Shown: piece after piece, positions 1 through 9,029 of the stretch
Layout: every line of letters begins with the position of its first letter
How positions within the stretch are numbered: the first letter of the stretch is position 1
NCBI GenBank assembly: GCA_000002445.1
Contig: CH464491.1
Coordinates: forward strand, 32,001-96,000
Origin: Trypanosoma brucei
Lineage: Eukaryota
Direction: 5' to 3'
DNA: 64,000 nucleotides
The notes under the pieces: model-generated
Database searches by the model: none
Told to the model about the DNA's origin: nothing
The model's input: the letters and a program-made list of their open reading frames with translations, nothing else
Position numbers and translations under genes: made by a program

Positions 1-3000
1 ATTCATCATTCCATTCTTCCGTATTAGTGCGAGGAAGCGGTACACGCCAACGTTCACAGTACGGCATCAATAGTTTCTCACGTTGCTGACCTTTGAATGT
101 GGCGAGTAACATTTGAAGTGAACTCATGATCATCTGAGCTGATTCACTTAATTCCACGCGTGATGAGCTATTCTCACTTGTGGAGTTGGTGGTTTCATTC
201 CCATCTTCAAAGTAATAATCATGATCCAAGCGTAGGGCTGCAAAGGTACGACCCGGTACTGCATTAAGTTGGTATAATTGTACCGGTTGGGGAACACCAC
301 GCAACTGAACGGGTCCGAGTGCGGTTACATCAAGTTGATGCCGCTGTGATTCACTTAAAGACATATAAGTTGCATGTGTTAGTAATACTTGCCCACCATT
401 GGCAACACTCTCCGTGCGAGCTGCCATATTGGTGGTGGGACCGTAGTAATCGAAACCTTTTGTAACTTCATCATGTCGAATATCACAAAGCCCAGTATGA
501 ATACCAATGCGTACACGCAAACCACTCCATAACCGACAATACACCTCAGAGTCCAGACATGCAGTAGGAGAAGTGTATTCATTATCCTCCTTCGCATTCG
601 TTTCCTCAAACTCACGGTAGAAATTATCCAATGCATCCGTACCCCAATCATTATGTAAAAACACAAGTTGGAGGTCTGCTGCAAGTTGTACAGCCTTAAA
701 TGGGTCCTGACATGCAATCATAAAAGAATCACCAATAGTTTTCACTTCATAGCAGTCGTGCTTAAGTACCAGTTGGCGAATCATACGGTGATGTGCTGCC
801 ACAGCTTCAGTCATAATATCAGGGTAAGTTGCCCACTGTGCTGTGCTGCTTTCAATATCAGTGAAAATAAGTGTCACAGGATCAGTCGGCTGCCTCGGTG
901 CTAGTTCGTTATCACGCTTGTTACTGATGGTACAGTATAGTGCTACTCCAAGGGTAACAAAAAGTAATAACGCGAAAACTAAACCAATAATGATGCCAAC
1001 TACCTGAGAGGATGACAACTGAACACGAATTTTTTTGTACACAATAGAAGGTGTCACCGGCTCCTGCATTACAGGAAGGGTGGGGTCCAATACGCGGCCG
1101 AAGGACCATACAGATATGTCTGTGGCACCATAATTCCAAACACAATTACCAGACAATTGTACACCGTTGGCAATACAATCAGCATCATTAAAGGGCCCAT
1201 ACCTCATATCATCAACAACAAAGGAAGTTTGCCAAAATATTTCATCAGACAATAGGGAAGAGCTAACCTTCTTCATGGGTAACAGAAGTGTTTGCATCAC
1301 TCGAGCGATGGCAAAGCCACGCAGTGACATTGGTGACCATTGTGACGGATCGGGAATGGCTTCATGGTAAGCAATAATGGTTTCCGATGTGGAACTATTA
1401 TCAGCCCAATGCGGCAAACTAGTGGCGAAAAGCAGGCGCTGTGCCTTGGCGTTTGCAGTCACACTGAACTCTAACTTCAGTTCCTCGTAATATAATAACA
1501 AGTCCGTGAATGTTATGAACACACGAGCTTGAGGATGGGTGTCAAGGTATTTTGATATCGTTTTCACATCGGGAGTTGTAAGTCCGAGTATGAACACGTC
1601 ACCACCATGTTTCAAGTGCTCCATATGGATATCAGAAACATGTTCATTCAAAAGAACTCTGGACCCGAGTGATGCACCAAAAGTCATAAGTGACATGGAC
1701 AGTACCTCAGCAACTTCAGCTGCTTCATCACTCCGAATTATAGTGTGAGCAATATGATTTGTTAAACGTGAGAAATACTGCGCAAGCACATACAGTTCTT
1801 GGGTGAGCGTAGGGAAAAAGTGTATGACATTCCTTTTGAATGTGCTCACCTGAGGAAAAACTACCATAGGGTCAAAGAAGATAACATCCGGTGTGGTGAG
1901 CACCTCATTGGTTACAACACCGAATACAGCAGAAACAATCCTTTCATCCAATGTATCAATAAGGTCCTTCGCAGCTCCTGAATATGAAGAATTAAGGGAA
2001 TGAAGATAAAGTCGGTCTCTACCTTCCCCGAATATTCGGAGGAATGTAGCGAATATACCTCTGTAGTACCTCAGGTTAGCGCGGTGTGCGTTTTCCATAT
2101 CGGCCATCATTATTATGCTGCTGCTCATCGGGGCATACAAAGGAACACTTAAGGTACCGCACTCAGAACCTTTTTGAAGAAAGAACCCTCTCCTCAGCGA
2201 AGCAAACTGGTATTTTTCCACCACTTCCTTCATATACACTACACTTCCTCCTTGATTGCAACGACACACGGCACCTTGAAGTTGAGCAGCACTGCCACAC
2301 TCACCTCCAAAGTCACCAATCACCATATCATCAATCAAGTAACGGCGCTGATTATAAAGTGATAATCTAAACAAGGTGCGATTTGTTAATGATATGCTGT
2401 CAACTAATGCTCGCATAAGCATCTCTCCAGCAAGCCACCCAAGAACCATCAATTCTCCACTGTTATGGTTTGTGTCAAAGTGTTCTGGTTTCGCAAAACC
2501 ACCCCAGTTCTCGTTAGTATTCAAATATTTTGTCATTTCTTCACGGAAGCGTTGAATGATTTTGTATCGTGTGTCACTCGCAAGTGGACCAGTACCAGTA
2601 ATAATAAGTTGACCAGCTTTTAATTCCGTGTTAGTTTCTTCCAAAGCTTCCTTCCAGGTATTCAGCAGAAATGTTTGCGAACTAGACGTAGTGAGTACAA
2701 AGGCATCTGCTGTATAATCCTCTCTCAATAAGTAGTGAATAAATTTTTTGGTGATGTCATGTGGAGAACCAAATAGCAACACGGCTTGTGGTCGTGTCTT
2801 CACAAATTTCTCCCACTCCTTGTCGAATGCGTCATCTCCAATACGCTCATTAACATTACCATCAATGGCAAATGTACCACACAACTTATATCCCATCATA
2901 GACATCACCTGCTCTGTAAAGGTATATGAAGAATCACCAAAGTTTGTGCCTTTCAGATACATAAAACCCACGCGTCGAAGTCGAAGAAATACGACAGCAT

Positions 3001-3487
3001 AACGAATCAGAGCAAGTAACTCAGCTTTGGGTTCAACACTTGGATAATAGAAATGAGGATTCCACCCACGAACTTCATCAGAATAAGAGAGAGGTGCAAA
3101 GGCAACTAAATCATGTTCCTCCAATTTGTCTCGAATCCAAAGTACGTTTTGGTTCCCCAGTGGTCCAACTATAACAAGAAGCTGTTCTTTACTATTCTTT
3201 ACTGCGTCATTGAAAGTTTCTTCGATTGTTTGATTGTAAGATGATGGTGTTTGTAAAGAAATTTCAAAATCAGATGCCTTTTCGACACTATTGGTTGCCA
3301 AAGATGCACTCAAACCTGCGTTGAGGGAGTTTACAATTTCGACATCCGCTTTCATATTATACATGAGATTCAGAACCTTAACAGTAACTTTGTCGGATGC
3401 TCCAACCGTGCGCATTAGCACCACAGTAGCCACTAATGCTGCGAATAATAACTTGCGGATGTGTGCGTGCCGTCGGTTATTTGCCAT
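1..3487 (-). CDS. GRESAG4: Receptor-type adenylate cyclase, GRESAG4/ESAG4 family. It is 5'-complete in the window, and the C-terminus continues past position 1.
   Basis: The minus-strand frame is open from the ATG at 3487..3485 down to the window edge, and the track shows no stop-terminated ORF in this frame. The N-terminus MANNRRHAHIRKLLFAALVATVVLMRTVGASDK looks like a signal peptide. A large extracellular domain follows, then one TM helix (VVGIIIGLVFALLLFVTLGVALY). The class III cyclase catalytic domain reads LIFTDIESSTAQWA...YEVKTIGDSFMIAC...GLRVRIGIHTGLCDIRHDEVTKGFDYYGPTTNMAARTESVANGGQVLLT. Confidence 0.85.
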   Translation of the reverse strand, partial: MANNRRHAHIRKLLFAALVATVVLMRTVGASDKVTVKVLNLMYNMKADVEIVNSLNAGLSASLATNSVEKASDFEISLQTPSSYNQTIEETFNDAVKNSKEQLLVIVGPLGNQNVLWIRDKLEEHDLVAFAPLSYSDEVRGWNPHFYYPSVEPKAELLALIRYAVVFLRLRRVGFMYLKGTNFGDSSYTFTEQVMSMMGYKLCGTFAIDGNVNERIGDDAFDKEWEKFVKTRPQAVLLFGSPHDITKKFIHYLLREDYTADAFVLTTSSSQTFLLNTWKEALEETNTELKAGQLIITGTGPLASDTRYKIIQRFREEMTKYLNTNENWGGFAKPEHFDTNHNSGELMVLGWLAGEMLMRALVDSISLTNRTLFRLSLYNQRRYLIDDMVIGDFGGECGSAAQLQGAVCRCNQGGSVVYMKEVVEKYQFASLRRGFFLQKGSECGTLSVPLYAPMSSSIIMMADMENAHRANLRYYRGIFATFLRIFGEGRDRLYLHSLNSSYSGAAKDLIDTLDERIVSAVFGVVTNEVLTTPDVIFFDPMVVFPQVSTFKRNVIHFFPTLTQELYVLAQYFSRLTNHIAHTIIRSDEAAEVAEVLSMSLMTFGASLGSRVLLNEHVSDIHMEHLKHGGDVFILGLTTPDVKTISKYLDTHPQARVFITFTDLLLYYEELKLEFSVTANAKAQRLLFATSLPHWADNSSTSETIIAYHEAIPDPSQWSPMSLRGFAIARVMQTLLLPMKKVSSSLLSDEIFWQTSFVVDDMRYGPFNDADCIANGVQLSGNCVWNYGATDISVWSFGRVLDPTLPVMQEPVTPSIVYKKIRVQLSSSQVVGIIIGLVFALLLFVTLGVALYCTISNKRDNELAPRQPTDPVTLIFTDIESSTAQWATYPDIMTEAVAAHHRMIRQLVLKHDCYEVKTIGDSFMIACQDPFKAVQLAADLQLVFLHNDWGTDALDNFYREFEETNAKEDNEYTSPTACLDSEVYCRLWSGLRVRIGIHTGLCDIRHDEVTKGFDYYGPTTNMAARTESVANGGQVLLTHATYMSLSESQRHQLDVTALGPVQLRGVPQPVQLYQLNAVPGRTFAALRLDHDYYFEDGNETTNSTSENSSSRVELSESAQMIMSSLQMLLATFKGQQREKLLMPYCERWRVPLPRTNTEEWNDE

Positions 3488-4189
3488 CAGCGGCAAACTC
3501 CTGTTGGTTGGCACTGGTGGTGAATGAAATGTTACAGCTTTTATGGTTGTAATGACGTCCCTGTAGCACATGGTTAAAGACACACTTTGAAAAATTTTGG
3601 GGCGGCGCTACGTTGTTCTAAAAAGGTAAGGAGACTGATATGTAATGAATGGGATATCTGAAGTGACGATGAGATGTTGTGTCATTCTGAGTGAAGAGCA
3701 AACGGGCCTCGTATATTAATTCTGTGAACGTGTCTACAGACGATTCTTTAGATGGTGAATATTTATTCCTTCTTGCAGTGAACCAAAGCCTAACAGAAGT
3801 GACACCTGCTATCGAATGATTCGCCTTCACATTCAACCAGTTACAGACAGTTAGTGTCTTTTTAAAATTGGCGGTAGATAACTTGGCTGACCAAGTGATA
3901 ATTAAAAGATTTGCTGTAAAACGAATATTAGCAACTACACTTCACCGCAAAAATGGGGACTTTGTGCTGCCACCCCTACGCTCATAGGGATTAGAAACCC
4001 TGCACAAAAGAATAAAAGGTCGCACGTAGTTGAAATTGTTTCTCGCCAAACGATTCGCGGCTGATCTCAACCCCCCTATTTCAGAAAAATTAACATCCGG
4101 TGTTCCGCTCAATTGCTACCGGGTGCTGTTACCAATCGTAGGTGAAGTTACAGCGGTCAAGTTATTTGTCCCTTCGGTACACCTTTAAT

Positions 4190-4320
4190 AGTGAGAAAAA
4201 GAAAAAAAAGGAATCAAAAGAGGGCACAAGTTGAGTTGGGTGAGAAGTATTAGACGAACAGGTAGTGTATATGCATTGACGGTAACAGTCAAAGAAAAAA
4301 GAGGGAAAAAGTAACAACAT
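4190..4320 (-). promoter_or_regulatory. Polypyrimidine tract(s) on the minus strand upstream of the GRESAG4 start, a candidate trans-splicing signal.
   Basis: The plus strand reads gagaaaaagaaaaaaaaggaatcaaaagaggg...aaagaaaaaagagggaaaaag. That is C/T-rich on the coding (minus) strand, 700-830 nt upstream of the ATG at 3487. Confidence 0.35.
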
Positions 4321-4566
4321 CAATACCAATTAGAATGGAGTTGTGAGAGTAACACCACCTGAGACCCTTTTCTCGTTTCTTTCTTCATTGCGTCGCGTAA
4401 AAATAAAAAAAACAAAAGTGTAAACAGTTACGATGGGCTTCACACCTGTGCCAGTTTTTATCCCGCCTGTACTGACGCCCTTTTGACACCCCAATTGACG
4501 TGCATAACTGACATTCAACAGTTTGAAAGGTTTCAGAGCCTCGGGTAATAATTTTTGACTCAATAT

Positions 4567-4830
4567 TTAGCGGCCGTCTCCACCCAAAAGAGAAGCCTCA
4601 CTTTCGGGAATGTAATCGAGAACATCGATCCCATCTTCAAAGAACTCGTCGAGGAATTCGAAGTCTGAGTCAAATAATGCACCATAATCCTCATCATCAT
4701 TCGCTGGTTTTTTTTGTCCATCACAACCATTAGTCCCACACCTCACGCTAGTGGCAAGTAGTGGCCGTGACATGCTACGCATATGGACCAAGAAATTACT
4801 TGTGATTGGGACGTGTAACCTCCGTAACAT
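4567..4830 (-). CDS. Small hypothetical protein with a strongly acidic C-terminus. The true start is probably an internal Met (MRSMSRP..., about 70 aa).
   Basis: An 87-codon minus ORF ending DYGALFDSDFEFLDEFFEDGIDVLDYIPESEASLLGGDGR. It is co-oriented with the gene array. I do not recognise a family. Confidence 0.3.
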   Translation of the reverse strand: MLRRLHVPITSNFLVHMRSMSRPLLATSVRCGTNGCDGQKKPANDDEDYGALFDSDFEFLDEFFEDGIDVLDYIPESEASLLGGDGR

Positions 4831-4904
4831 TTTCCCTGTTTCTTTTTTTAGACAATTAACTTTAAGTCATGATTTAAAGTCAAAAAAAAAATCAAAAAGG
4901 AAAA

Positions 4905-4931
4905 ATATATGTATATATATATATATATATA
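4905..4931. repeat. (TA)n microsatellite.
   Basis: The sequence tatatgtatatatatatatatatatat, read directly. Confidence 0.9.
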
Positions 4932-5085
4932 ACATGAAATTATTGGCTTTATTTGCACGACAAAATATATAATTATTTAGACATGTATCATAACACGCGT
5001 ACTTATGAGACTTCATATAATGGGAATAGTTACAAACAATGTTCCGAATGTGGGGTAAAAGATGATGATGATGATAATGGCACGA

Positions 5086-5451
5086 CTATCGCAGTAGAAC
5101 GCACCAAAAGAAGATCAAAACGAAAAACACCACAACCCCAATTAAAAGTGTGTGGCGGAATCCATAACGTTGCACCACCTCTCCGATACGACCCACAGAC
5201 CGATTGACACCACTCGATGCACGCGAGAAGGCGGAACCCACGAAAGAAAGCATTTGATTTTGTTCTTCCACCTCTTGTCGTAATGTATCTGCGGAAGTTT
5301 TCACTTTAGCTGCTGTATTACCCAAAGCGTTCAACAGAGCCTCATTCTCCTTCACGAGATCTTCTTCAAATTGCGCACGCTTCTCAGCACTTAAATCATC
5401 AGATTGTTTTTCCAAACGTTGTCCACCAAAGACGGTGGATCTCATTTCCAA
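5086..5451 (-). CDS. Bet1/SFT1-like Qc-SNARE, a tail-anchored Golgi SNARE.
   Basis: A 121-aa protein with a SNARE-like heptad region (NEALLNALGNTAAKVKTSADTLRQEVEEQNQMLSFVGSAFSRASSGVNRSVGRI). It has one C-terminal TM anchor, LLIGVVVFFVLIFFWCVLLR, at the extreme C-terminus. Size and layout match Bet1-family SNAREs. Confidence 0.55.
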   Translation of the reverse strand: MEMRSTVFGGQRLEKQSDDLSAEKRAQFEEDLVKENEALLNALGNTAAKVKTSADTLRQEVEEQNQMLSFVGSAFSRASSGVNRSVGRIGEVVQRYGFRHTLLIGVVVFFVLIFFWCVLLR

Positions 5452-6133
5452 AGTGATAGATGTAAGTATTTACCCTCAGCTTGTAAGTAAAGAATCGCAA
5501 TACACAAAAACACGCGCACACTTTTTTATTATCGTACACGAGTTCCGTGAAAAAACGTTCGCTAATTTCTATGACAGGCAAAGAGCAGCGCCCACCGGAA
5601 ATAAATTGTCTTTTCTTTCCCTTTTTAAATGTGTAGAAGCAAATATGTTTTTTTTTGTTCTTCCATTTCACAGCCCAACAACAACAACAAAAAGAGATAT
5701 ATGGTAGCAATTGCGCTCACAATAAGTAACATCATAGCAGAGGACAAGAATGATTGTAATTGTGTTTGCACATATATAAACGTAAATATATATATATTTC
5801 TTTCCCTCTTAACAGGCATTCCTCAGAATCCTTCCGTTTCGATAGCACACACAAAAAAAAAAAGCATCGGTTTGTCATCGCAGACGTTACGATTTCATCA
5901 TGCGCCGGCAGCCAATGTTGCGTCGTTTCATCCGCCGCTTTTTGTCGTGTTCCATACGTATTTCTATACGATAGGGACGTTTAACGTTATATCCCATTCC
6001 ACCAACAAATGTTCTCTTGAGAAACTGTGACCAAAGCGCCAGCGATGGAGTAAACATAAGTAACTACCCTTTTTTTTTGCTTTTGCTTTTTTCTTTTTTT
6101 TTTTCACCGCTGACGGTGCGGCTGCTTCGACTA

Positions 6134-6146
6134 TTTTTTTTTTTTT
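6134..6146. repeat. Poly(T) homopolymer of about 13 nt inside a T-rich low-complexity spacer (6060-6240).
   Basis: The sequence ctattttttttttttttgtgt, read directly. Flanking sequence has ctttttttttgcttttgcttttttctttttttttttcacc. Confidence 0.9.
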
Positions 6147-6284
6147 GTGTACGCCTCCGATACTTATTTTACATGAAATTTTTGGCAGGACAATGCGAAA
6201 TGTACCAATTTTTTTTTAAAAAAATAAAAATGCAACAAGGGGGAAAAAAGAAAACATAATGAAATAAATACGTATACTTACATA

Positions 6285-6308
6285 TTATATATATATATAT
6301 ATATATAT
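6285..6308. repeat. (TA)12 microsatellite.
   Basis: The sequence tatatatatatatatatatatatat, read directly. Confidence 0.9.
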
Positions 6309-6948
6309 TTACATATTTGTATCAACAACAACAAACATAGTTATGGCGAATGCTTTTGGTAGTGTCGTTGAGGGTGACACGACGCGTGAAGTGAAATGCA
6401 AATATATATATAATATATTAAAATAAACTGTTATTTGCATTTATATTTCCTTATAGGGAAGGGAAGGTGCAGACACATGGACAGGGATAATTCTTCCTTC
6501 AAGTGTTCGGTGCCTCATGCAAATTACGAAATATTTATCGCAGTTCTACACAACCCCAACAAATCAAACAAAAAAGCAAGCACTAACATATATCCATTTT
6601 GTTTTTCTCTAATTGTTTCTTTTTTTTTTCCGAGTAAATTAAAAAAAAAGGAAAGTGGAAATCAAGACGAAAACAATAACAACAGTAACAAAAAAAGGGG
6701 TACAATCCTTCCATCCAACCATTATGTGAACCCCTACAACTCTACCCTTCCTGTTTTCTTATCACTTTCTTTTTTTTTCAAATTTAAACATTCATTTTTC
6801 GTTCCTAATTTACTTCCGTTACGGGAGTTCCGACACGCTGCAAATTATAAAACATAACCAAAACGGAGTGAAGGCGATGAACCGGCTTTGTCATTTTCCC
6901 GTTGCTGGTCATTTGAAACGCTTCGTCAAAAAACTCCACTTCCGGAAT

Positions 6949-7179
6949 TCACTCAACCACACCGCCCCTATGGGAAGTAATGGTAAAATATATTTGAACC
7001 ACCGTTGAACCGAGAACAATAAATAAAATTGTTGCACCAAGCCAACTGGGCAATGCAGAGGCATTTTCACGCTTCTCGCGTAGTTTTTTCTTTTCCTCAT
7101 CAGAGAGTCGTGGCATGCTGATTTGGCTGTTTTGCTTCTGCGCCTTAACGCGAATCATCCTTGTAGGGCTTAAAGGCAT
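6949..7179 (-). CDS. RAMP4/SERP1/YSY6-family stress-associated ER membrane protein. The likely start is the second Met at 7158.
   Basis: A 76-codon ORF with a basic N-terminal half (RLSDEEKKKLREKRENAS) followed by the family motif ALPSWLGATILFIVLGSTVVQIYFTI. Compare yeast YSY6 ...ISKTWLGILLFLLVGGGVLQLI and human SERP1 [21 protein letters not shown]. It has one C-terminal TM. Confidence 0.55.
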   Translation of the reverse strand: MPLSPTRMIRVKAQKQNSQISMPRLSDEEKKKLREKRENASALPSWLGATILFIVLGSTVVQIYFTITSHRGGVVE

Positions 7180-7514
7180 TTTTTTTTTAAAAAAAATTTT
7201 TTGTTTTGTGTGTCGGGGTTGCTCCGGCTTAATTCGGTTCTAAAAAAAAAACTTAAAATCTACTATTGATGGAATAGGAAGCGGAAATAACCGTCGATGA
7301 TAATGACAATCAAGAAAAGAAAAAAAAAGAAGGGATCATCGAACACACACATGCGTGACAGAACACGGACAGAAAAGTAGGCATTATATGATGATGAAAT
7401 GCAACGACAAACCATGACAAAGCACTGCGGTAAAAACAAAAAAATTGTAATAAATACTTCTTCACAATAGAAGAGGATTAATAAAAATGCATTGAAGCAG
7501 GTGGCAGTGTCAGC

Positions 7515-9029
7515 CTATCGCACTCCATAACTTCGAAGGTTGAAATAATGGGCCTTCATACTCATCCGCTTCCCCAACTCTTCCGTGTAGTTTTGTACAC
7601 CACGCAAATCCTTTGAGAGATTCACACGGAAATAGAGATTGAAGGGTAATGCAAAGGGAATACGTTTGGCGTAGTCAACAATGTGACCGAGGCATCGCTG
7701 TTCATCTTCTGCATTCCACCAAAAACAAACATTAGGGTGAAGAAAACAAGTAACATCAACAACTGGTTGCAATAACTGACGCGTCACGTCCTGCGCTGAG
7801 GACCGAGTTACCTGGCGGAATGTACTTTTTACGATAATAGACGGTGCAAATGGTAAAATCACAGGAATACCACCAGAAAACAGTTGTGGAGGCGGCTCCT
7901 GAAACCATGGCACTTCGCTTCCATCTGCTCGCACAATCCGCTGCTCCACCACTTGTATCGCTTCATCACCCGCAGACGACGGCGGCACAACTTGAACGTT
8001 AAAAGCTGTTGCGTGACGGCTGGGAATGTCGGGATCACCCATTTCACCTGGTTTCAGATCGAGTGGTTGCCGGTCCCTTTCCACGGCATACATTTCTAAC
8101 ATTTCCCATATAACCTGCTTTGTGATATTTGCATGAAGTTCCCATTCCTCAGCCGCCTCCACAATTTGCGGAATCACGCGTGGATCCTCCCGGTGGACAC
8201 GAAACTCATATCCAATTGTAGTTACTTGAAAAGTTGGATTCTCCGGTGTGCTCCAAACACGCGGGCTGAGGGAATGATCAAAGCGACCAACAACAGAGAA
8301 ATCCGGCTCGGAACGGACCTCCACAAGTACACCAGACCGCTCAACACTCCTAACAGATGATCGCCTACACAACTGAAGTGCCGCGGTATTTGCTTTCGCC
8401 TTTCCCTCAAAGTAAACATCATTGGTATGTCCATTACGTCCACAACGCCATCCATGATTTGCATTTCCTCGATTCATACAAACGACGGTGGAGTGCCTTG
8501 AGTCGGTTTGCCGGAGGACGCCACACACCTTCGCTTCAATTGCGGGAAGGAGAGCCGCGCGTTCCGTGCGTGTGAGATGCAACACCTTATCGAAAAGTAC
8601 AATAAGTTCCTCACGGCTCAACCACTTGAGTTCATGCCAATCAATACCCTCATCCTTCAGTTTGTCGTAGTGCTTTTCCAAGTTACAAAGCATTTTGTAT
8701 TGTCTCCGACCGACGTGCCCACTGAGTTTTTCCAAAATGAGTTTTAGAGAAGTGTACCTGTTGTTTTCGCCCACAACATTAAAAGTATTGCTCAGGACCA
8801 TCTTTCGAGGCACCGAATATCGGGGATGATAACGGAGTGCATCCGCGGGAATAACACTACGTGTAGGAACCTTTGACACTTTACATAACACAGCAGTCCA
8901 TCTCATGCGATCAAAACAATAACGCAGCACAACTTCCCTCGAGACTTTAATATCAGAGAAGAGGTTTGTAACAACATAAAGTAGAAAGAAAAAAAGGCAA
9001 CACGGGGAGGTCAGGAAAAAGGAAAGCAC
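7515..9029 (-). CDS. Conserved hypothetical protein. The 504-codon ORF's first 40 or so codons probably read through the upstream polypyrimidine tract, so the real start is likely MRWTAVL... or later.
   Basis: A long uninterrupted minus ORF co-oriented with the array. The N-terminal stretch MLSFFLTSPCCLFFFLLYVV is what a Y-tract produces on translation. No family recognised. Confidence 0.5.
   Translation of the reverse strand: MLSFFLTSPCCLFFFLLYVVTNLFSDIKVSREVVLRYCFDRMRWTAVLCKVSKVPTRSVIPADALRYHPRYSVPRKMVLSNTFNVVGENNRYTSLKLILEKLSGHVGRRQYKMLCNLEKHYDKLKDEGIDWHELKWLSREELIVLFDKVLHLTRTERAALLPAIEAKVCGVLRQTDSRHSTVVCMNRGNANHGWRCGRNGHTNDVYFEGKAKANTAALQLCRRSSVRSVERSGVLVEVRSEPDFSVVGRFDHSLSPRVWSTPENPTFQVTTIGYEFRVHREDPRVIPQIVEAAEEWELHANITKQVIWEMLEMYAVERDRQPLDLKPGEMGDPDIPSRHATAFNVQVVPPSSAGDEAIQVVEQRIVRADGSEVPWFQEPPPQLFSGGIPVILPFAPSIIVKSTFRQVTRSSAQDVTRQLLQPVVDVTCFLHPNVCFWWNAEDEQRCLGHIVDYAKRIPFALPFNLYFRVNLSKDLRGVQNYTEELGKRMSMKAHYFNLRSYGVR

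What the first reader, a model, noticed from the sequence alone, without database searches (positions are those of the whole stretch)
3488..7514. An apparent 4-kb gene desert actually holds small tail-anchored membrane-protein genes (a Bet1-like SNARE and a RAMP4/SERP homolog)
A gene caller with a ≥100-150 codon cutoff would leave this interval empty. Two short co-oriented ORFs nevertheless have clear family signatures. ORF 5086..5451 has a Qc-SNARE heptad region plus an extreme C-terminal TM anchor. ORF 6949..7179 carries the WLGxxxLFxxxGxxVLQxI motif of RAMP4/YSY6. Both are tail-anchored ER/Golgi proteins. Their placement one after the other in a long spacer is easy to miss.
Basis: partly seen in the sequence, partly recalled or inferred. 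Interest (0 to 1): 0.5.

Follow-up and report, generated by a model that had tools for sequence, protein, structure and literature searches.

The report
Four small conserved genes, already known

Summary
Both ORFs exist at the stated coordinates, both on the minus strand, in the same orientation as the flanking genes. ORF 6949-7179 (76 aa) belongs to the RAMP4/SERP family. Its own Pfam PF06624 score is 22.2 bits against a cut-off of 24, but orthologues score 26.9-41.7 bits, and an orthologue profile finds SERP1 in PDB 8RJB. ORF 5086-5445 (119 aa from the ATG) is a short tail-anchored Qc-SNARE of the Bet1/Bet1L(GS15)/Sft1 group. It has all 16 heptad layers in register, Q62 at the 0-layer, and a transmembrane segment at 100-118. 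One is mt-LAF20 (5887-6057, 56 aa, 55/56 identical to PDB 6YXY chain EU), which lies between the two ORFs. The other is an acidic 87-aa protein (4567-4830). The four genes keep the same order in Trypanosoma, Phytomonas and Angomonas, and their substitutions are mainly at third codon positions. The SNARE is annotated in T. brucei TREU927 and T. b. gambiense DAL972, and RAMP4 in T. equiperdum and T. vivax. Several other assemblies omit RAMP4 and mt-LAF20. One point of wider interest: a 2024 paper calls RAMP4 "largely absent" from Discoba, yet it is present in all three trypanosomatid genera examined. Verdict: correct and already known. Interest is low.

The parts
3488..7514 (-). Interval between two large minus-strand genes. 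It holds four small conserved protein-coding genes in one transcription direction.
6949..7179 (-). RAMP4/SERP homologue, 76 aa. It has a basic N-terminal half and a C-terminal transmembrane segment at about 46-68 with invariant G57. Tail-anchored.
   Evidence: Pfam PF06624 at 22.2 bits. Orthologues score 26.9-41.7 bits. SERP1 in 8RJB at E=1.1e-4. Hydropathy. 100% identical to T. equiperdum SCU67777.1.
5887..6057 (-). mt-LAF20, 56 aa, very basic (pI 11.7). A protein seen in a solved T. brucei mitoribosome large-subunit assembly intermediate. It is the most conserved element in the interval.
   Evidence: 55/56 identical to PDB 6yxy chain EU. 84% aa identity to T. melophagium, T. conorhini and T. 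grayi, 86% to T. cruzi and 71-73% to Phytomonas and Angomonas. Codon-position differences 42/20/165.
5086..5445 (-). Qc-SNARE of the Bet1/Bet1L/Sft1 group, 119 aa. No N-terminal domain. SNARE layers -7 to +8 fall at residues 38-90, with Q62 as the 0-layer. Transmembrane segment at 100-118, with one residue after it. Tail-anchored.
4567..4830 (-). Conserved 87-aa acidic protein (pI 4.4). It has an MLRR... N-terminus that looks like a mitochondrial presequence and a conserved DFxFLDExF...DYIPE motif. No known family.
   Evidence: Orthologues in the same position in eight other trypanosomatid species. No Pfam or PDB match. Annotated in T. equiperdum.
1..3487 (-). Flanking gene: receptor-type adenylate cyclase (GRESAG4-like). 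Its ATG is at 3487 and it runs off the window start.
   Evidence: L006 annotation with PF00211 and A-cyclase periplasmic-binding domains.
7515..8906 (-). Flanking upstream gene: conserved hypothetical protein of 463 aa, with no Pfam family.
7312..7335 (-). Polypyrimidine tract upstream of RAMP4, with the first AG at 7263. Candidate trans-splice signal. Similar tracts lie at 6237-6254 (mt-LAF20), 5853-5864 (SNARE) and 4894-4905 (orf87).
   Evidence: and the sequence. Consistent with trans-splicing only; not tested with RNA data.

Best explanation
The interval is an ordinary stretch of a trypanosome polycistronic transcription unit near the left end of T. brucei chromosome 11. It encodes four small proteins in a row on the minus strand.

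(1) A RAMP4/SERP homologue. By analogy with mammalian RAMP4, this tail-anchored ER protein would bind the ribosome through its basic N-terminal part. Its glycine-kinked transmembrane helix would sit in the lateral gate of Sec61 during co-translational translocation.
(2) mt-LAF20, a 56-residue basic protein that is part of a mitoribosomal large-subunit assembly intermediate.
(3) A short tail-anchored Qc-SNARE of the Bet1/Bet1L(GS15)/Sft1 group. It would supply the Qc helix of a syntaxin-5-type four-helix bundle in ER-to-Golgi or intra-Golgi fusion.
(4) An acidic 87-residue protein of unknown role, probably mitochondrial.

Shown here: the ORFs, their conservation and order, the pattern of purifying selection, the family matches, and the identity of mt-LAF20 to a solved chain. 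Inferred: localisation, binding partners, and separate trans-splicing of each mRNA.
For: ORFs.

Conserved order: the same order RAMP4, mt-LAF20, SNARE, orf87 is found in T. equiperdum, T. melophagium, T. conorhini, T. grayi, T. cruzi, Phytomonas EM1 and Angomonas deanei. Only these four blocks are conserved in the interval. Substitutions are in excess at third codon positions in all four genes.

RAMP4. G57 is invariant and aligned with the SERP1 glycine. The mechanism comes from PMC11186639.

SNARE: named Qc-SNARE in T. conorhini, T. grayi and T. theileri. The Angomonas orthologue is named BET1. Profile scores are BET1L 38.7, BET1 24.0, yeast Bet1 20.7 and Sft1 8.5 bits. Qc helices top the PDB search. 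The layers are in register with Q62 at the 0-layer. The transmembrane segment is at the extreme C-terminus. Two Bet1 paralogues are reported in kinetoplastids (PMC3979113 and PMC5399786).

mt-LAF20.

Chromosomal position: DAL972 chromosome 11, bases 2317-8676.
Against: The T. brucei RAMP4 copy falls 1.8 bits short of the Pfam gathering score.

The SNARE has no Pfam SNARE hit. Only 16 of 112 relatives hit PF05739, and 29 of 112 weakly hit the C-terminal part of the Use1 model instead.

No RNA, spliced-leader or ribosome-profiling data could be examined. Expression of the SNARE, RAMP4 and orf87 therefore rests on conservation alone. The one Logan contig fetched was genomic and carried no spliced leader.

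They were checked only indirectly, through 42-50% identity matches to database proteins.
Confidence: 0.9

Rival explanations
1. The ORFs are chance open frames in AT-rich intergenic or UTR sequence and encode nothing.
For: Two longer plus-strand ORFs (133 and 140 aa) occur in the same interval and have no conserved block of their own, so ORF length by itself is uninformative here.
Against: All four are intact and in the same order in eight other trypanosomatid species. Third-position substitutions dominate. One of them is a protein chain in a solved structure. There are significant family matches.
Confidence: 0.02
2. The SNARE is not a Bet1-type protein. Instead it is another Qc subfamily, or it is the functional stand-in for Use1, the Golgi-to-ER retrograde Qc-SNARE that has not been found in kinetoplastids.
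For: 29 of 112 family members weakly match the C-terminal SNARE and transmembrane part of Pfam Use1, for example 16.1 bits over positions 147-234 of 243. Use1 is reported missing from kinetoplastids while Syx18, Sec20 and Sec22 are present (PMC5399786). Bet1 versus Sft1 is unresolved in published trees.
Against: The Use1 scores are far below the 38.3-bit cut-off and cover only the generic SNARE and transmembrane part. The protein lacks the roughly 130-residue N-terminal Use1 domain. Its size and architecture match Bet1, Bet1L and Sft1. Its profile retrieves BET1 and BET1L relatives, and a source names the Angomonas orthologue BET1.
Confidence: 0.08
3. The 76-aa ORF is a generic small tail-anchored protein that resembles RAMP4 only through transmembrane composition.
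For: The T. brucei copy is sub-threshold in Pfam (22.2 bits against 24). The Phytomonas copy scores only 14.7 bits. The PDB profile alignment covers mainly the transmembrane region.
Against: The Pfam alignments span nearly the whole model, including the N-terminal part (2-59 of 60 for T. brucei; 2-57 at 41.7 bits for T. melophagium). No other family competes. The kink glycine and the polar lumenal half (GSTVVQIYFTITS) are conserved.
Confidence: 0.05

Closest known systems
RAMP4 / SERP1 (mammals), Ysy6 (yeast); Pfam PF06624
   Same: Length of about 65-77 aa. Basic N-terminal segment. A single C-terminal transmembrane segment with a conserved mid-helix glycine and a polar lumenal half. Tail-anchored topology. 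Profile matches in Pfam and to SERP1 of PDB 8RJB.
   Different: The T. brucei copy is about 10 residues longer than SERP1 and sits just under the Pfam threshold. Binding to the ribosome and Sec61 is untested. It occurs in Discoba, where PMC11186639 reports the family as largely absent.
BET1, BET1L (GS15) and Sft1: short Qc-SNAREs of the syntaxin-5 complexes
   Same: About 110-140 aa with no Habc domain. A 16-layer SNARE motif directly followed by a C-terminal transmembrane anchor. The profile retrieves BET1 and BET1L relatives. A source names the Angomonas orthologue BET1.
   Different: No match to Pfam SNARE (PF05739). It scores higher against BET1L than against BET1, so orthology within the group is open. 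The 0-layer is Q in the T. brucei group but H in most other trypanosomatid orthologues (49 of 112 family members).
Use1 (Qc-SNARE of the Golgi-to-ER retrograde complex)
   Same: A Qc-type SNARE motif plus a transmembrane anchor. Relatives give weak sub-threshold hits to the C-terminal part of PF09753.
   Different: It lacks the N-terminal Use1 domain, is about half the length, and its scores are far below the cut-off.
mt-LAF20 of the T. brucei mitoribosome large-subunit assembly intermediate (PDB 6YXY chain EU)
   Same: ORF 5887-6057 is 55/56 identical, with one K44R difference.
   Different: None of substance. The gene is simply not called in several genome annotations.

Membership tests
RAMP4/SERP (PF06624) | Profile match at or above the Pfam gathering score (24 bits) | tested here: inconclusive
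   The window protein scores 22.2 bits at E=1.4e-4, over 2-59 of 60. Orthologues pass: T. melophagium 41.7, T. grayi 30.3, Angomonas 29.1, T. conorhini 26.9. T. vivax scores 23.1 and Phytomonas 14.7.
RAMP4/SERP (PF06624) | Small protein with one transmembrane segment near the C-terminus (tail anchor) | tested here: met
   76 aa. The hydrophobic maximum is at 49-67, with 9 residues after it.
RAMP4/SERP (PF06624) | Conserved mid-transmembrane glycine (the kink) followed by an amphipathic or polar lumenal half | tested here: met
   G57 is invariant in 5 species. It aligns with the glycine of SERP1 '[10 protein letters not shown]'. The feature is as described in PMC11186639.
RAMP4/SERP (PF06624) | Binds the ribosome (eL19, eL22, eL31 and 28S rRNA) and occupies the Sec61 lateral gate | not testable with these tools
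   This needs co-purification, cryo-EM or cryo-ET, or multimer prediction with TbSec61.
Qc-SNARE, Bet1/Bet1L/Sft1 group | SNARE motif of 16 heptad layers with a central polar 0-layer | tested here: met
   The layers fall at residues 38, 41, 45, 48, 52, 55, 59, 62, 66, 69, 73, 76, 80, 83, 87 and 90, with Q62 at the 0-layer. The family column is Q in 54 and H in 49 of 112 sequences.
Qc-SNARE, Bet1/Bet1L/Sft1 group | Qc rather than Qa, Qb or R helix type | tested here: met
   The best PDB matches of the family profile are all Qc-position chains: syntaxin 8 at 4.1e-10, syntaxin 6 at 4.4e-9, SNAP-29 C-terminal at 2e-7 and SNAP-25 C-terminal at about 1e-5. Qa syntaxins score at 3.6e-4 or weaker.
Qc-SNARE, Bet1/Bet1L/Sft1 group | Match to the Pfam SNARE domain (PF05739) | tested here: not met
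   There is no hit for the window protein or its trypanosome orthologues. 16 of 112 relatives hit. UniRef names the protein 't-SNARE coiled-coil homology domain-containing'.
Qc-SNARE, Bet1/Bet1L/Sft1 group | Short protein with no N-terminal Habc domain, and a C-terminal transmembrane segment directly after the motif | tested here: met
   119 aa. The motif runs from 38 to 90 and the transmembrane segment from 100 to 118. Retrieved relatives are mostly 100-150 aa.
Qc-SNARE, Bet1/Bet1L/Sft1 group | Specific orthology to Bet1 as opposed to Bet1L/GS15/Sft1 | tested here: inconclusive
Close relatives mostly score higher against BET1L. The Angomonas orthologue is named BET1. Published trees do not resolve Bet1 from Sft1.
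Qc-SNARE, Bet1/Bet1L/Sft1 group | Forms a complex with Syx5 plus Bos1 or Gos1 plus Sec22 or Ykt6; ER or Golgi localisation | not testable with these tools
   This needs tagging and immunoisolation.
mt-LAF20 | Sequence identity to the chain modelled in the solved assembly intermediate | tested here: met
   55/56 identical to 6yxy_EU, E=6.7e-35.

The most novel reading that the evidence does not exclude
Two readings remain open.

(a) RAMP4 is an ancestral component of the trypanosomatid (Discoba) Sec61 translocon. On this reading, its reported near-absence from Discoba, which was used to argue for an origin after the last eukaryotic common ancestor, is partly an artefact of genes under 80 codons being missed by annotation. 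This locus shows such omissions in DAL972, T. cruzi, T. conorhini and T. grayi, and a wrong gene model in T. melophagium.

(b) More speculatively, this BET1L-like paralogue supplies the Qc helix of the Golgi-to-ER retrograde complex, standing in for the Use1 that has not been found in kinetoplastids.
Probability: 0.3. Interest if true: 0.4.

Novelty: already known. Interest (0 to 1): 0.2.

Why it matters
As a discovery it matters little, because three of the four genes are already named in public databases (SNARE, RAMP4, mt-LAF20). It is a clean worked example of how genes under 120 codons are annotated inconsistently across trypanosome assemblies. The same four-gene block is fully called in Angomonas and Phytomonas, three-quarters called in T. 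equiperdum, one-quarter called in T. b. gambiense and T. cruzi, and mis-spliced in T. melophagium. That inconsistency can distort presence/absence surveys based on predicted proteomes. The likely case here is RAMP4, which a 2024 structural paper describes as largely absent from Discoba, yet which is present and under purifying selection in all three trypanosomatid genera examined.

Tried and rejected
1. mt-LAF20 as a divergent bL34m. By eye I saw a KRTF...RM...RR..G.RR resemblance. Profile-profile comparison with recalled bacterial bL34 sequences gave a probability of 0.6% over 3 columns. A PDB profile search at E<=10 found only 6YXY and no bL34 chain. Rejected.

2. A non-coding RNA explanation for the highly conserved 5888-6039 block (78% nucleotide identity to T. 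melophagium). Rfam found nothing in the window and there are no tRNAs. Codon-position differences of 42/20/165 and the PDB match show that the block is coding. Rejected.

3. Direct evidence of trans-splicing from an assembled read contig (Logan ERR7929163). The contig is collinear with the genome and carries no spliced leader. Uninformative.

4. Gene identifiers and localisation from the SNARE inventories. The Bet1 gene IDs are not in the held text or supplements.

5. mt-LAF20 in the held mitoribosome papers. It is not mentioned in the main texts, and the paper I believe describes 6YXY (Jaskolowski 2020, from my own recollection) is not held.

6. Pfam and PDB searches for orf87 and its orthologues. 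Nothing was found beyond a chance-level resemblance to acidic activation peptides.

7. Further conserved elements in 3400-7600. tblastx found none beyond the four genes.


Full report
**What is at the coordinates.** The ORF listing confirms ORF 5086..5451 (121 aa from TTG) and ORF 6949..7179 (76 aa from ATG). Both are on the minus strand. The interval 3488-7514 is bounded on one side by the ATG at 3487 of a minus-strand receptor-type adenylate cyclase, which runs off the window start (annotated as such in T. b. gambiense). On the other side is the stop at 7515 of a conserved 463-aa gene. Every gene here reads in the same direction, as expected for a trypanosome polycistron. The window is about 97% identical to T. 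equiperdum, T. b. equiperdum and T. b. gambiense DNA. In DAL972 the locus lies at bases 2317-8676 of chromosome 11, at the very left end.

**Is it more than chance?** ORF length alone is not. The same interval holds plus-strand ORFs of 133 and 140 aa that have no conserved block of their own. Conservation is what separates the real genes. I fetched syntenic loci from T. melophagium, T. equiperdum, T. conorhini, T. grayi, T. cruzi, Phytomonas EM1 and Angomonas deanei. tblastn and tblastx show exactly four conserved blocks in the interval, always in the same order on the coding strand:
- RAMP4-like, 6949-7179
- a 56-aa ORF, 5887-6057
- the SNARE, 5086-5445
- an 87-aa ORF, 4567-4830

All four are intact ORFs in T. 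equiperdum, T. melophagium, T. conorhini and T. grayi. The Angomonas and Phytomonas copies are also complete ORFs, and T. cruzi matches all four by tblastn. Among four species, substitutions at codon positions 1/2/3 are 103/70/274, 42/20/165, 204/179/427 and 196/139/268 respectively. That is the pattern of purifying selection on proteins.

**RAMP4.**
- The window protein matches Pfam PF06624 across nearly the whole model (2-59 of 60) at E=1.4e-4. It scores 22.2 bits against a cut-off of 24.
- All five aligned orthologues match, best E=1.1e-10. T. melophagium (41.7 bits), T. grayi (30.3), Angomonas (29.1) and T. conorhini (26.9) pass the cut-off.
- A profile of the orthologues finds SERP1 in the ribosome-translocon structures 8RJB/C/D at E=1.1e-4. 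The invariant G57 aligns with the SERP1 mid-helix glycine.
- The hydrophobic segment lies at about 46-68 of 76, so the protein is tail-anchored.
- According to PMC11186639, mammalian RAMP4 binds the ribosome through its N-terminal domain and places a glycine-kinked transmembrane helix in the Sec61 lateral gate. I infer the same role here but did not test it.
- The same paper says RAMP4 is 'largely absent' from Discoba and infers an origin after the last eukaryotic common ancestor. Its presence in Trypanosoma, Phytomonas and Angomonas qualifies that statement.

**The SNARE.**
- The real start is the ATG at 5445, giving 119 aa. This sequence is identical to EAN78996.1 (TREU927) and CBH16887.1 (DAL972). 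Both are labelled 'hypothetical protein, conserved', and UniRef calls it a t-SNARE coiled-coil homology domain protein. Orthologues in T. conorhini, T. grayi and T. theileri are named 'putative Qc-SNARE'.
- Pfam gives no SNARE hit.
- A profile of seven trypanosome sequences, run against 1.84 billion representative proteins, retrieved 253 proteins at E<=0.001, most of them 100-150 aa.
- One of these, from Angomonas, is named 'blocked early in transport 1'. Others are 42-50% identical to human BET1 and BET1L as I recalled those sequences.
- The trypanosome profile scores BET1L at 38.7 bits, BET1 at 24.0, yeast Bet1 at 20.7 and Sft1 at 8.5.
- A 112-sequence family profile matches the Qc-position helices of solved SNARE complexes best (syntaxin 8, syntaxin 6, SNAP-29 C-terminal, SNAP-25 C-terminal). 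Qa syntaxins score well behind.
- The sixteen layers fall at residues 38-90 with regular 3/4 spacing and Q62 at the centre. That column is Q in 54 and H in 49 of 112 relatives. The other Trypanosoma species examined carry H (and the per-sequence listing).
- The transmembrane segment is 100-118 of 119.
- Published inventories report two Bet1 paralogues in kinetoplastids, do not resolve Bet1 from Sft1, and find no Use1.
- 'Bet1-like Qc-SNARE, tail-anchored' is therefore correct at the group level. Weak sub-threshold hits of relatives to the C-terminal part of the Use1 model keep a low-probability alternative alive.

- Between the two ORFs lies a 56-aa gene, 5887-6057. It is 55/56 identical to chain EU of PDB 6YXY, named mt-LAF20, a component of a T. 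brucei mitoribosomal large-subunit assembly intermediate. It is the most conserved element in the interval: 84% aa identity to T. melophagium, T. conorhini and T. grayi, and 78% nucleotide identity to T. melophagium.
- Downstream of the SNARE is a conserved acidic 87-aa protein with an MLRR... N-terminus and a DFxFLDExF...DYIPE motif. It has no family or structure match.

**Annotation status.**
- Angomonas and Phytomonas call all four genes.
- T. equiperdum and T. b. equiperdum call three and omit mt-LAF20.
- DAL972 and one T. cruzi assembly call only the SNARE.
- T. conorhini calls neither RAMP4 nor mt-LAF20.
- T. melophagium joins RAMP4 to mt-LAF20 through a spurious intron, although an intact 77-aa RAMP4 ORF is present.
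- The exact mt-LAF20 and orf87 sequences of this window are not in the 15-billion-protein collection.

**Limits.** No RNA or ribosome-profiling data could be consulted. Polypyrimidine tracts followed by AG lie upstream of each ORF, but such motifs are common in this sequence and are only consistent with trans-splicing. The reference BET1, BET1L, Bet1 and Sft1 sequences came from memory.

**Verdict.** The observation and the interpretation are both right but incomplete, and the genes are already known. Interest is low. There are two modest side points: inconsistent annotation of very small genes, and the bearing on the reported absence of RAMP4 from Discoba.

Noticed in passing
window 5887-6057 (-): A third small gene lies between the two reported ORFs. 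It is 56 aa, very basic, and 55/56 identical to PDB 6YXY chain EU (mt-LAF20). It is the most conserved element of the interval and is not called in five of the eight annotated genomes examined; T. melophagium splices it onto RAMP4.
   Followed up: yes
window 4567-4830 (-): A fourth conserved small gene of 87 aa. It is acidic (pI 4.4), has an MLRR... N-terminus that looks like a mitochondrial presequence, and carries a conserved DFxFLDExF...DYIPExEA motif. Orthologues sit in the same position in Trypanosoma, Phytomonas and Angomonas. It matches no Pfam family and no solved structure.
   Followed up: partly
L001 8001-8652 (T. melophagium): The deposited gene model ('Stress-associated endoplasmic reticulum protein', 105 aa) joins the N-terminal part of RAMP4 to the mt-LAF20 ORF through an intron. 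An intact 77-aa RAMP4 ORF (8001-8234) and a separate 56-aa ORF (8482-8652) are both present, so the intron is almost certainly an annotation artefact.
   Followed up: yes
window 1-4566 versus L001, L004, L010: Synteny breaks just downstream of the 87-aa gene. T. grayi, T. melophagium and Phytomonas continue with a poly(A)-binding protein (RRM + MLLE). The T. brucei group instead continues with a receptor-type adenylate cyclase at the extreme left end of chromosome 11.
   Followed up: partly
SNARE residue 62 (window 5260-5262, -): The 0-layer residue is Q in the T. brucei group but H in T. cruzi, T. grayi, T. conorhini, T. theileri, T. melophagium and Angomonas. Across 112 family members it is Q in 54, H in 49, D in 4 and S in 4.
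   Followed up: partly
window 5443-5451 (-): Other Trypanosoma species start the SNARE with MKMRSS. In this window the first codon is TTG (TTG GAA ATG), so translation must begin at the third codon, giving 119 aa.
   Followed up: yes
window 5629-6030 (+) and 6435-6857 (+): Two plus-strand ORFs of 133 and 140 aa are longer than any of the four real genes. They are low-complexity and have no conserved block of their own. The first partly overlaps mt-LAF20 on the opposite strand.
   Followed up: yes
window about 6285-6320 and 4905-4935: (TA)n and (TATA)-type microsatellites, together with long A and T runs, fill the spacers between the small genes. GC content falls to 0.31-0.37 there.
   Followed up: no
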